A stretch of DNA of 64,000 nt from Eledone cirrhosa (taxonomy: Eukaryota): the NCBI GenBank assembly GCA_964016885.1, contig OZ024747.1, positions 64,852,001 through 64,916,000 of the forward strand, in the 5' to 3' direction. Shown piece by piece: positions 30,219 to 45,481 of this stretch. The position numbers and the translations under genes were made by a program. Under the pieces are notes generated by a model that ran no database searches, was not told the origin of the DNA, and was given only the letters and a program-made list of their open reading frames with translations. Position 1 is the stretch's first letter; each line of letters begins with the position of its first letter.

Positions 30219-30254
30219 TCTTCCGATGAAGGACTAGCGTCCGAAATATTAAGA
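30219..30254 (+). ncRNA. Minimal hammerhead motif, U4C variant
   Basis: tctt CCGATGA a GGAC tagc GTCC GAAA tat then taaga. Family copy on the minus strand at 52902-52937. Confidence 0.7.
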
Positions 30255-30598
30255 CACCTTTCCTGCTATATCAAGTGTTAACCTAGTATATTCCTTCCAT
30301 ATACTGTACCGATTGTGTTGTTATTTCTGTTTACGTTTTACACACACACATATATATATATATATATATATATATATATATATATATATATATATATATA
30401 TATATATATATATATATATATATATTAGTGTGTGTGTATGTGTGTGTGTATGTGTGTGTGTGGGTGTGGGTGTCTGGGTGTGTGTGTCTGGGCGTGAGTG
30501 TGTGCGTGCGTGCGCGCGAGTGTATGTATATCTGTATATGTGTATATATATATATATATTTTTTAATGTGGTCTACCGTTCGTGGTAGATAGAACTGA

Positions 30599-30724
30599 AT
30601 TGTTTCCGAAGAAGACGGTTTGATCGAACCTATATATGAAGTCTGGCAGTATACAGTTATATAACTGCTATAAATCAGTCAATATGTCAATATGATCAAC
30701 CTTCCGAAACGATCGTAAGACAAT
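30599..30724 (+). ncRNA. Hammerhead motif with ~90-nt stem II, U4C variant
   Basis: attgttt CCGAAGA a..GGTTTGATC..GATCAACC ttcc GAAA cgatcg TA agacaat; 7-bp stem I and palindromic stem III. Confidence 0.7.
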
Positions 30725-32603
30725 GAGATGAATAAGTAAAATAACTTCTCTTTGATATTATTATTTTCATTGTTAAACTAATACCTAATATATATATATA
30801 TATGTGTGTGTGTGTGTGTGTGTATGTATGTGTGTGTGTGTGTATGTGTGTGTTTGTGTATGTGTCTGTGTGCATGCGTGTGTGTATGTGTGTGTGCATG
30901 TGTGTGTGTGTATGTGTGTATGTGTGTATGTGTGTGTATATGGGGGGGGGGCATGTGCGTGTGTATGTGTCTGGCTATATGGTAATTGCGATACACACAC
31001 ACCTAACGTAAGGCCGTGAGTTAAATTCCCGGTGTGGCGTTATGTCCTTGAGAAAAACAGTTTATTTCAAGAACTACGTAGATGGTTCACGTGTCTGTCG
31101 AATTCTCTGCCACTTGCACGTGAATTTCGCGAGCAGACTGTTCCATTGATCGCCTCAACTGGAATACTCGTGTTGACTGAAGTTGAGATTAACTGAACTC
31201 AATTATAAATTACTCGGGGCTAAGAGATACGTCTCAGGTAGAGAACACGGAAATTTCTAATTTCCTGGAACTCATACAAAGTGTATTGAGTTGACCCTCC
31301 TGTTCTCTTCGGCTACACACACACACACGCACGCACACACGCACGCACGCGCACACACACACACACACACACACACACACACACACACACATTCATTCAC
31401 TCACACACACACACACACACACACACACACACATGCAACAATATCATAACATCTGAGCAAGCTGCAGGAACGAATGGACTATATAGACCAGCTATTAATT
31501 ACCAAAGTTACCTTAGAAACGACTGACCACACTACCAGAAGGCATCTGATAATATACTACCAGAAAGGCATCTGGTATGGAGAGAGCTTGCCAGTGTTGC
31601 TTTTCGTTAAATCCACTATCATACCTGCTCAGAAAACATAATGATCATAGACATTGTTCCTGATGTATCTCCAATCGTTTTCTTGTTGATAGCCTGGCAT
31701 TTTATGGGCCAAATATCAACAGCATCAACCGGCAACAGGACCTCATTACCCAATTTTCTACAGAGAATGGAATTACATTTGGTCAGTAGAAATGCGAATT
31801 TTTGACATTAAGATGTGGAAAATCTGTGTTCTTATTTGGAAATATAAATATGAACTGCGTGCCAATACAACATCTAATATCAGATATGAGAGGCCAATAA
31901 ATAAGGAGCAGACCAAGAATGAGTGGTTGCGGGAAGTAACGAGTGTCGATGATCAGGTAGACGGAGTATGTGGGAAGCCAGGCGAAGCCATCGCTGTGTA
32001 ATTATCGCTTGCTGCGGTCGTCACTTTGTTCTCCCTAATAGAGATCAGATACAATGATACAAGTCACCGTGTCATCATTACTTACTATTATGTTGAAGGA
32101 CTCCGACAGTAGGGCGAACAGATGGTCACTATGTACTTTGCCTTGCAGTATGGGACACGTTTCTTTTCATTTACAGCACTAATTAGAATACTGTCGTAAA
32201 CTATTAGAAAATATTAAAAAATAGATAAAAATAAAAATCTAAAATAAAATATATCAAAACAACATTTATGTCTTGTCATGGTTATTCGATAATCATTTCA
32301 TATTCCTAACATTGATCTAATAAAATAGTAATTAACTGAAAATAGTCGTTCATTAAATAATAATAAAGATAGTTTCCTTAATGAAAGTAATGAACAACTC
32401 CGTGTATATTTTTATATATTTACTGTTTTATATGCTGTGAACAGTAATATATATATATATATATATATATATATATATATATATATTAATAAGAGGAATT
32501 CCAACTTTGTCTGATTTACTCGTTTTATTTACAATCCTTTAAAATATATATAATGGTATTATAATGAAATAGTATGATAGAATATTAAATTCTAAGTGTT
32601 AAT

Positions 32604-32642
32604 TGAACAAGTACTTTCATGCTTTCGCAATCTTCAGGTTCA
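32604..32642 (-). ncRNA. Minimal hammerhead motif (left arm of palindrome)
   Basis: Mirror image of 32715-32753. Confidence 0.8.
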
Positions 32643-32714
32643 TGATATGTGGTGACAGTCGAGTTTGCAATTTTCAACTGTGAAAATTGCAAACTCGACT
32701 GTCACCACATATCA

Positions 32715-32753
32715 TGAACCTGAAGATTGCGAAAGCATGAAAGTACTTGTTCA
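32715..32753 (+). ncRNA. Minimal hammerhead motif, U-U at base of stem II
   Basis: tgaac CTGAAGA t TGC gaaa GCA t GAAA gtac TT gttca. Confidence 0.8.
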
Positions 32754-33028
32754 ATTAACACTTAGAATTTAATATTCTATCATACTATTTCATTATAATA
32801 CCATTATATATATTTTAAAGGATTGTAAATAAAACGAGTAAATCAGACAAAGTTGGAATTCCTCTTATTAATATAATCTTCTATACACAATCATACACAC
32901 CCGTGTATATTTACCTATCTATATCTATATATATATATATATATATATATAATATATATATATATATATATATATATATATATACATATATATATATATA
33001 TATAATAATAATAATAATAATAATAATC

Positions 33029-42689: not shown

Positions 42690-43255
42690 TCAGGTTATAA
42701 ATTGGGTGTTGAGCTCTAGTCTATTATTGATTGGTGGATGTGTTCTATCTATAATAAGTGCTTCCTTGATTCTAAGATTGCCGAGGTTTCTTTCCTTAGT
42801 TTCTATCCTAACTGTTATGTTTTTATCGGCGTTTTTGCATTTAACTAGGTGTTTCTTAAATGAGGAAGCGTTAGTATTGAGGTGTTCTTTTATTCTTATG
42901 TGGAGTGGTCTGGTGGTGCTACCTACGTAGAAGTTGTTGCATTTGTCACACTCTAGTCTGTAAACTACGTAAGCCTGGTGGCGTAGGTCTGTGTCGTTGA
43001 TGGGGCAGTTGGCTAGTCTGCAGCAGTTGTCATGTCTGGTGGAGTGTCTCTTAGCCAGCCGTCCGCGCAAAGAAGGACCCGAGTGGGCCAGTTGAATATC
43101 CAGACCCTCTCGTCTGATGGCTCTGCGGATGGCTGTTGTTGTTTCTTCACTGAAGTGTGGGAGCTTCAGGAAGCAAGTGTTAGTGCCTCGGGTGTCGTGT
43201 CCTCTGTTCTTTCTGGCACGGTTTGTGGTGGATGTCGTGTATCCGTTCAGTTTGA
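42690..43255 (-). mobile_element. Penelope-like element, C-terminal GIY-YIG endonuclease (5'-truncated at a (TA)n tract)
   Basis: C....CP..........VVYRLECDKCNNFYVGSTTRPLHIRIKEH...LRIKEALII....P.IN.R.E. Confidence 0.9.
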
Positions 43256-43444
43256 GTACTTATATATATATATATATATATATATATATATATATATATA
43301 TATATATATATATATATATATATATATATATATATATATATATATATGTGTGAAGTAATTCCGTCGGAAAGGTCCAGGAAAAAAGAGTGCTCTATGTAGG
43401 TTACAGAGCTTAATAGTTATGTAATAAACAACATAAGGCAATTA

Positions 43445-43505
43445 TTTCATTTACCAGTGGTTTCTTGAAAGCAAACAAATTTTTCTTTCAATCATCACAA
43501 TGAAA
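43445..43505 (-). ncRNA. Hammerhead motif, C3G-mutated copy of 49716
   Basis: Minus strand: tttcatt GTGATGA TTGAAAG..CTTTCAA GAAA ccactgg TA aatgaaa. Confidence 0.65.
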
Positions 43506-43844
43506 AAATCCTGGTGTATATATTGACAGTGGATTTTAAAAACAAAAATATAATCTATATGAAAGTGAGGCTGGAAAAGGAAGAAGGAAAAGAAAAATAA
43601 ACACACATTGACACACACACAATTACATACACACATATATATATACATACACATATATATACATATATATACACATATATATATATATATATATATATAT
43701 ACATACATACACATATACATACACGTACAAATACACATACATATATCACCATATCCATATATACACATACACACAAATACACAAACACACATGTATGTAT
43801 ATATATATATATATATACATATATATACATCTATATATATATAT

Positions 43845-44652
43845 GAGTTGTAATAAAATGAAAACGAAATTTCATTTCTCACTCTTAGTACGGCACTTAC
43901 TTAAATGTAAGTATGTATGTATACGTACATACATATATGTGTACAGACGTACAGTAGCATGCATATATATATATATATATATATACACATATATACATAC
44001 AGGTACACATACATATATGTACGTATCAGTTTAGCGGACGCTTAATATAGCGCCCGCTTTGTTCGTTTGTAAACAAACTGAACAGCCTGTACAAACTGTA
44101 CGTCTGTACACATATATGTATGTACGTATACATACATACTTACATTTAAGTAAGTGCCGTACTAAGAGTGAGAAATGAAATTTCGTTTTCATTTTATTAC
44201 AACTCGTCGTTTTCGGTGCGCCTGACCGATTTAACTCACTCGATATGCAAATTAGGCTGCTCAGCCGTTAATTTTCATAAGGAAAATATATACTTTCGAA
44301 CGTTCAACTATCAGGCAGATCGGTATACGGTGCTGATGATAGCTAACAAGCTTGAAACTAGTACATCGTTCCTGTGTCAGTGTTGAACAAAAAGGTGACG
44401 TGGTTGCCTTAACACCGTGCGGCATAAATTCAGGCTATTCAGTTTGTTTACAAACGAACAAAGCGGCGTTATAATAAGCGTCCGCTAAACTGATACGTGC
44501 ATATATGTATGTGTACCTGTATGTATATATGTGTGTATATATATATATATATATATATATATATATATATATATATATATATATATATATATGCATGCTA
44601 CTGTACGTCTGTACACATATATGTATGTACGTATACATACATACTTACATTT
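43845..44652. mobile_element. HHR-bearing ~505-bp unit plus an inverted permuted partial copy, nested in another HHR element
   Basis: Direct repeat at 44095-44150 and 44600-44652; 43845-44090 is inverted. Absent from the sister copy at 48750-49803. A second family copy lies at 56084-56660. Confidence 0.8.
44327..44369 (+). ncRNA. Minimal hammerhead motif, U-U at base of stem II
   Basis: acggtg CTGATGA t AGC taacaa GCT t GAAA ctag TA catcgt. Confidence 0.8.
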
Positions 44653-45403
44653 ATATATATATATATATATATATATATACATACACATAATCATACATAT
44701 AAACACACGTACATACACACACATACACACATATATACACGCATACATCGCATACACAAATATAGATATATGTACACACACCTACATACGCGCACACAAA
44801 ATTAATTATAAGAAAAAATATAATAATAAAAATACCGTCACATAAGAATAAAAAATAAATGTAAAATTATTATAAAGTTGACAGCGATACAGGCAACAAA
44901 TAAATGAACAAACACACGTGGTAAACAATACACACAATTGCACATACACATACATACATAAAAATAACTACATACACATACACACACACACATACATATA
45001 TATACATATACACATACATACACATATACATACACACATATATATATATATATACATACATATACACACACACATACATATAAATACATACACACATGTA
45101 TGTAAAACTCATTCTTAGATGTATTAATTAAACCTTGTTTAACTCTTAAATATACATATATATATATATATATATATATATATATACACATACATAAATA
45201 TATATATATATATATATATATATATATATATATATATATATATATATATATATATATATATATATATATATATATATATTTATATATATATATTTATATA
45301 TAAGTATTGAAGTTTCCGTTGAAAATTGAAAAAGTCATAGGAGTGAAGAGTGCTCTATGTAAGTACCAGAGCAGAATTTAATGTATAATAAACAATACAA
45401 TAT

Positions 45404-45481
45404 AATTACCTCATTACCAGAGGTTTCCCGAATAAGACGAATACGAAAAACGTCCTCATTCGTTCGTCGGACAAGGCAATT
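45404..45481 (-). ncRNA. Hammerhead motif, U4C variant, 11-bp stem I
   Basis: Minus strand: aattgccttgt CCGACGA a CGAATGAGGACG..CGTCTTATTCG g GAAA cctctgg TA atgaggtaatt. Confidence 0.75.

What the first reader, a model, noticed from the sequence alone, without database searches (positions are those of the whole stretch)
30219..45481. Recurrent CCGANGA (U4C) core, usually followed by an extra A
Seen: CCGATGA-A (30223), CCGAAGA-A (30606 and 42284), CCGACGA-A (45470) and CCGTCGA (37997), all in unrelated families. Independent T-to-C changes creating CpG in AT-rich DNA are unlikely. The 52902 sister of 30219 has CTGA and AAAA, both explicable as CpG decay from CCGA and CGAAA. Established: U4 is part of the conserved CUGA turn. 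Inference: U4C may be the ancestral, possibly attenuated, state of these families.
Basis: partly seen in the sequence, partly recalled or inferred. Interest (0 to 1): 0.7.

Follow-up and report, generated by a model that had tools for sequence, protein, structure and literature searches.

The report
Penelope hammerheads flipping one core letter
The five motifs are hammerhead (self-cutting RNA) sequences of the kind carried at the ends of Penelope-type jumping genes; in four of the five families the unusual C was inherited by whole lineages and has flipped between U and C, so it is likely a tolerated, slower-cutting state rather than the ancestral one.

Summary
All five cores exist and complete a type I hammerhead (5 C4 hits in the window; shuffles average 0.02). 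The 7-mer alone is not above chance. Genome counts split the claim. The 30219 family is U4 (3,569 versus 72 copies); its C4 is an ordinary point mutation, no commoner than T-to-C at position 7, so the 52902 sister is not CpG decay at that site. In the other four families C4 was amplified: 49 of 65, 2,689 of 3,797, 1,273 of 3,341 and 1,574 of 2,620 copies. Three of these are tied to Penelope-like ORFs, one intact. Subfamily trees show position 4 flipping both ways (U-C-U-C in the 37997 lineage, which then added A6U) while the rest of the ribozyme stays conserved. So C4 is a recurrent, reversible state, not generally ancestral. The extra A is a known feature, also present in U4 copies. U4C is known from viroids and still cleaves; I found no paper on C4 Penelope families, but two key papers were unavailable. 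Cleavage is untested. This scan has noted C4 cores before, in this genome and others.

The parts
30219..30254 (+). Family A minimal type I hammerhead; C4 here is a private mutation of an old copy (family consensus U4); stem III also decayed from ACGT to ATAT
52902..52937 (-). Second family A copy with consensus U4; G12 lost (AAAA), consistent with CpG decay
30599..30724 (+). Family B hammerhead: 7-bp stem I, C4 core, 93-nt stem II region, palindromic stem III (ACGATCGT); no ORF link found
37915..38001 (-). Family E hammerhead (Hydra-type Penelope-like element): C4 plus A6U, 60-nt covarying stem II, palindromic stem III (ACGCGCGT), no extra A
42253..42287 (-). Family C minimal hammerhead in the 3' pseudo-LTR of a young Penelope-like element: C4, extra A, 5-bp stem II, AATT palindrome
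42690..43259 (-). 3' remnant of the family C ORF (GIY-YIG endonuclease), 95% identical to the intact 905-codon ORF of L331
45406..45479 (-). Family D hammerhead (Hydra-type Penelope-like element): C4, A and G flanking stem II, 36-nt stem II region, 3-bp hairpin stem III

Best explanation
These are type I hammerhead motifs in the terminal repeats of Penelope-like retrotransposons, and position 4 of their core is U or C in the lineages that amplified, likely because a C4 ribozyme still folds and cuts slowly and copying likely does not depend on fast cutting. Shown: structure, ORF linkage for families C, D and E, amplification of C4 lineages to more than 1,000 copies each, changes at position 4 in both directions, conservation of the rest of the ribozyme, and a private C4 mutation in family A. 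Inferred: the order of changes, residual cleavage, dimer formation through the palindromic stem III, and protein assistance.
For: C4 counts 49/65 (B), 2,689/3,797 (C), 1,273/3,341 (D), 1,574/2,620 (E). An uninterrupted 905-codon RT plus GIY-YIG frame is flanked by two C4 hammerheads (L331). U4 copies in C and D are subfamilies, not decay: TG 35 vs CA 2, and TG 36 vs CA 0, in the first 100 listed. Family C subfamily tree: position 4 changes twice, no other site of the 39-nt span changes, 55 of 236 flank sites do. Family D: two changes. Family E with outgroup: U, C, U, then C plus A6U. E stems covary: 85% of cells paired vs 25-38% when slid. Three more C4-majority families appeared unselected among 23 other clusters (one confirmed at 62 CG of the first 100 of 1,010). 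Copies do not end at the cut site in either state (D 1 of 101, E 0 of 100). Literature: U4C lowers activity in vitro but supports viroid infection (PMC3088659, passage; PMC9608096, passage); a Penelope hammerhead needed its protein to cut and core mutants still inserted in vitro (PMC11167929, passages).
Against: No cleavage or RNA data. Pairwise mutagenesis of one type III hammerhead found low activity for CUGA-turn mutants (PMC9901934, passage), so C4, and above all C4 plus A6U, may be near dead. Part of the apparent conservation was imposed by my patterns (18 of 39 positions in family C at least). Roots for C and D rest on divergence from consensus only; deep nodes of the E tree have 59-76% support and a long outgroup branch. 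On the E subfamily-consensus tree without outgroup only one change is needed. RNAalifold on the E alignment gave a different weak structure, and single-strand MFE folds of B and D are not the hammerhead. Families A and B were not tied to an ORF. Most compact hammerheads here are U4 (15,588 vs 889).
Confidence: 0.62

Rival explanations
1. Catalysis is dispensable: C4 (and A6U) hammerheads are dead, and the fold is kept as a binding or initiation platform for the element's protein or for another overlapping signal such as a pyrimidine tract.
For: The youngest family E lineage carries two core changes and still gave 476 exact matches, 91 of the first 100 CCGTCGA. Copies do not end at the cut site. 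Core mutants inserted normally in vitro (PMC11167929).
Against: No A4 or G4 family among 26 credible clusters; returns to U4 are inferred in C, D and E; the cut-site U-H and A15.1-U16.1 pair are kept; 18 of 21 credible unselected families keep U4.
Confidence: 0.2
2. C4 is positively selected as a brake: slower cutting leaves more full-length template, and lineages switch between fast (U4) and slow (C4) settings.
For: The youngest subfamilies of C and E are C4 (divergence 0.004-0.010 in C). Only 3 of 236 flank sites in C and 11 of 148 in D changed twice or more, whereas position 4 did in both.
Against: In D two of the least diverged subfamilies are U4 (0.013, against 0.014 for the window's C4 subfamily). 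Families were picked for having C4. A TpG/CpG site flips more easily than average. The largest families are U4.
Confidence: 0.13
3. One reading: C4 is ancestral in all five families and U4 copies are CpG decay.
For: Fits family B (8 TG, 6 CA of 65) and early family E subfamilies.
Against: Family A is 98% U4 with almost no CCAA. TG far exceeds CA in C and D. The E outgroup and three clusters sharing B's stem III are U4.
Confidence: 0.03
4. All C4 cores are post-insertion mutations or chance motifs.
For: True for 30223; the 7-mer count alone is within chance.
Against: Eight other places are 100% identical to the window's family C copy over 181 bases, C4 included; C4 occurs in more than 1,000 copies of each of three families.
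Confidence: 0.02

Closest known systems
Minimal type I hammerheads of metazoan Penelope-like elements (Cervera and De la Pena 2014, PMC4209133; seen: parts 1-2 of 4 of the text, supplement file 2 passages, file 1 not searchable)
   Same: Position in pseudo-LTRs, palindromic stem III for dimers, one nucleotide between 9 and 10.1, G10.1-C11.1, many families per genome, a family-wide core variant (U3-A8 in Schistosoma).
   Different: Their consensus core is CUGANGA; no C4 core in the passages returned. Stem II regions here reach 36-93 nt.
Hydra-clade Penelope-like elements (Craig et al. 2021, PMC8557442; seen: passages, section 11, supplement part 2 with File S2)
   Same: Families D and E have RWK/RWR, DKT and CxCX5C motifs and end in (TA)n; File S2 shows hairpin stem III and extra bases on both sides of stem II as in D.
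   Different: All 34 rows of File S2 have CUGA; none has C4 or U6, and the Hydra rows have short stem II loops.
U4C hammerhead variants of viroids (peach latent mosaic viroid, cited through PMC3088659 and PMC9608096; passages only; the 1998 paper was not held)
   Same: Same CUGA to CCGA change; reported to keep self-cleavage, reduced in vitro.
   Different: There it is a rare variant in a population; here it is the fixed state of whole retrotransposon subfamilies, gained and lost repeatedly.
Poseidon element of Anolis (Frangieh et al. 2024, PMC11167929; passages)
   Same: Hammerhead just before the ORF start; insertion from RNA not cut at the hammerhead.
   Different: No position 4 variant is mentioned in the passages seen; activity was tested there, not here.

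Membership tests
Type I hammerhead (Penelope minimal type) | Core C3-U4-G5-A6-N7-G8-A9 | tested here: not met
   C4 in all five window copies, U6 also in E; sister subfamilies of C, D and E and the consensus of A meet it.
Type I hammerhead (Penelope minimal type) | G12-A13-A14, A15.1-U16.1 pair and U-H cut site | tested here: met
   All five; A15.1-U16.1 in 54 of 56 distinct E sequences.
Type I hammerhead (Penelope minimal type) | Stems I and II closing the core, supported by covariation | tested here: met
   E: 11 of 27 pairs with two-sided changes, 85% cells paired (structure taken from the window copy). Covariation was not counted for A to D; their stems pair by sequence.
Type I hammerhead (Penelope minimal type) | Short palindromic stem III allowing dimers | tested here: met
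   A, B, C and E palindromic; cofold of two E copies gives the dimeric hammerhead. D has a 3-bp hairpin instead.
Type I hammerhead (Penelope minimal type) | Self-cleavage at the predicted site | not testable with these tools
   No assay available.
Penelope-like element, C-terminal endonuclease | Single ORF with RT and C-terminal GIY-YIG between pseudo-LTRs holding the hammerhead | tested here: met
   Family C: L331, Pfam RVT_1 and GIY-YIG. D and E: broken ORFs between or beside hammerheads (L333, L334, L335).
Penelope-like element, C-terminal endonuclease | ORF linkage for families A and B | tested here: inconclusive
   No consistent ORF in their loci; they may be non-autonomous or truncated.
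Hydra clade (families D, E) | RWK, DKT and CxCX5C motifs, (TA)n targets | tested here: met
   Read in translations of L344, L345, L335, L336, L348; E has RWR; motif list from PMC8557442 section 11. Pfam gave no hit for these three proteins.
Hydra clade (families D, E) | Placement in the Hydra clade on an RT tree | not tested
   No tree with reference elements was built.

The most novel reading that the evidence does not exclude
Penelope-like elements use core position 4 as a reversible speed switch, and one lineage has gone further (C4 plus U6) to a nearly or fully silent hammerhead that still made over a thousand copies, showing that the conserved fold serves the element's protein more than it serves cutting.
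Probability: 0.25. Interest if true: 0.65.

Novelty: new variant of a known kind. Interest (0 to 1): 0.42.

Why it matters
Why Penelope-like elements keep a hammerhead is open (PMC8557442, PMC11167929). These families give natural matched pairs, U4 and C4 ribozymes otherwise identical, in an element with an uninterrupted ORF, plus a series ending in C4/U6, so the question can be tested directly. Searches fixed on CUGANGA with short stems miss thousands of these motifs.

Tried and rejected
Rfam scan of the window: no hammerhead family among the 150 best of 401 rows shown, only microsatellite-driven miRNA hits. RNA: no RNA holder listed. Contigs of four runs laid on family C: three other-organism runs gave one low-depth contig each, not used as evidence. 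First covariation count was off by one column and was redone. AU tests rejected one U4 clade in C (p 1e-5) and D (p 0.013), but sporadic decayed copies make this weak, so I rely on subfamily consensuses. The first relaxed scan missed long stem II motifs. Search for an ORF tied to A and B failed. A C4 subfamily in A was sought and not found: no diagnostic column at p<0.01 in 35 vs 57 copies, 3 of 95 dropped. My early reading that the youngest subfamily is always C4 was dropped. Paper searches: hammerhead+CCGA+uridine turn 0; hammerhead+U4C+retrotransposon 1, Perreault 2011; hammerhead+Penelope+CCGA 0; core-string search found one 2026 virome paper using CYGANGA (PMC13481778, passages). Lunse et al. 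2017 and Ambros and Flores 1998 were not held, so the first may already report C4 in Penelope hammerheads.

Full report
Setting. The window lies in a 3.0-Gb animal genome rich in TA microsatellites. I did not try to identify it. I call the families A (30223), B (30606), C (42284), D (45470) and E (37997).

Observation. All five cores are present; C, D and E are on the minus strand. The 7-mer CCGANGA is not enriched by itself (14 vs 8.6 +/- 2.9). A descriptor with position 4 free and stem II up to about 115 nt finds 8 complete hammerheads in the window, 5 with C4, against 0.34 and 0.02 in 100 shuffles. B, D and E have long stem II regions (93, 36, 60 nt). The extra A is in four of five, is shared with U4 copies, and is a published feature of Penelope hammerheads (PMC4209133).

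Family A. Exact 29-base patterns give 3,569 U4 and 72 C4. Of 111 matches with neither U4 nor U5, the first 100 are 64 CG, 19 AG, 13 GG, 3 CA and 1 CC; decay from CG would have made CA about as common as TG. The control at position 7, also a TpG, has 144 non-U copies, 70 of the first 100 being C, so T-to-C at 4 is no commoner than at a free site. C4 copies share no diagnostic change.

Family B. 65 matches: 49 CG, 8 TG, 6 CA, 2 other. Symmetric decay shows C4 at amplification. Three small clusters sharing its stem III are U4, which suggests C4 is derived further back. No ORF link was found.

Family C. 2,689 of 3,797 are C4. Eight other places match the window copy at 100%. L331 holds an uninterrupted 905-codon RT plus GIY-YIG frame between two C4 hammerheads. 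Of 112 copies, 101 fell into six subfamilies: one mostly C4 (23 of 33), two pure U4 (18, 4), three pure C4 (33, 7, 6, the least diverged). Position 4 changes twice on their tree; nothing else in the 39-nt span changes; 55 of 236 flank sites change, 3 of them twice. My patterns fixed at least 18 of the 39 sites, so the contrast is overstated.

Family D. 1,273 of 3,341 are C4; the first 100 of a narrower pattern give 61 CG, 36 TG, 0 CA. Of 101 copies, 93 fell into 11 subfamilies: U4 at both ends of the tree and C4 in the middle; two of the least diverged are U4. The ORF has Hydra-clade motifs.

Family E. 1,574 of 2,620 are C4 (the total includes the outgroup). The young subfamily is CCGUCGA in 91 of the first 100 of 476. 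A tree of 58 chosen copies (of 117 at hand), with positions 4-6 masked and rooted on a U4 sister family, runs U4, C4, U4, then C4 with U6; nesting of the later steps has 94-100% support, the deep nodes 59-76%. The U4 relatives carry the perfect core in the same frame, which confirms that the window copy is a hammerhead homologue. Stems covary (85% paired, 111 two-sided cells vs 30 shuffled), though RNAalifold chose another weak fold. Two copies cofold into the dimeric hammerhead.

Wider census. In 1.68 Mb of fetched loci, 648 hits formed 28 clusters of two or more: the 5 targeted, 2 likely false, 18 U4 and 3 C4-majority. One of the three has 1,010 matches, 62 CG, 26 TG, 7 CA and 5 other in the first 100. 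Compact motifs ending CGAAAC are 15,588 U4 and 889 C4. No credible family has a purine at 4.

Mechanism. Most likely the ribozyme is under selection for its fold and for slow, protein-assisted cutting, and either pyrimidine will do at position 4. U4C lowers but keeps activity in viroids; a Penelope hammerhead cut only with its protein, and dead mutants still inserted. Copies here do not end at the cut site in either state (D 1 of 101, E 0 of 100; C not testable with my filter). Against: mutagenesis of another hammerhead showed low activity for CUGA-turn mutants, and nothing here measures cleavage. Rivals are a dead scaffold (0.2) and a selected brake (0.13).

Novelty. Penelope hammerheads, the extra nucleotide and the U4C variant are each known; one 2026 paper already searches with CYGANGA. 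All 34 published Hydra and Chlamys rows have CUGA, and searches found no paper on C4 Penelope families, but Lunse et al. 2017 could not be read. Earlier notes of this scan report C4 Penelope hammerheads in this genome and others; I reached my reading before seeing them. What this analysis adds is the neutral-site control, the refutation for family A, and reversals to U4 with a later A6U. Papers seen only as passages and not used: PMC6155905, PMC6962438, PMC7461866, PMC3907566; bioRxiv 10.64898/2026.07.22.740005, part 1 of 5; PMC6765202 passages for the dimer model.

Verdict.

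Noticed in passing
window 49716-49776 (+), 55435-55489 (+), 51993-52073 (-), 40657-40701 (-), about 6628-6671 (-): Further U4 hammerheads of other families; a decayed relative of the first lies at 43498 (-) with G in place of C3.
   Followed up: partly
L066, L561-L590, L026, L074: Three more families with C4 cores, all with stem III GAAACAATTGT and stem II regions of 20-94 nt; the largest has both C4 and U4 groups.
   Followed up: partly
loci pool: Many hammerhead families in this genome have stem II regions of 26-115 nt, which short-stem descriptors would miss.
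   Followed up: partly
window 38013-38028 (-) and 30599 (+): Family E has a pyrimidine tract ending in AG 16 nt before the core, like a splice acceptor. Many B copies (52 of 76 alignments) and E copies (30 of 100) begin at or within 10 nt of the 5' strand of stem I.
   Followed up: no
window 27867-29324 and 727-3600: Two copies of a LINE-type element with endonuclease and reverse transcriptase frames; six of the non-hammerhead CCGANGA sites lie in or beside them.
   Followed up: no
L352-L380: Another abundant compact hammerhead family (stem II GGGC-TTAT-GCCC) makes up a large share of the generic C4 hits and may hold a C4 sub-lineage.
   Followed up: no
family A flanks: CpG sites have decayed in about 12% of copies in family A but only 1-4% in the youngest C, D and E subfamilies.
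   Followed up: partly
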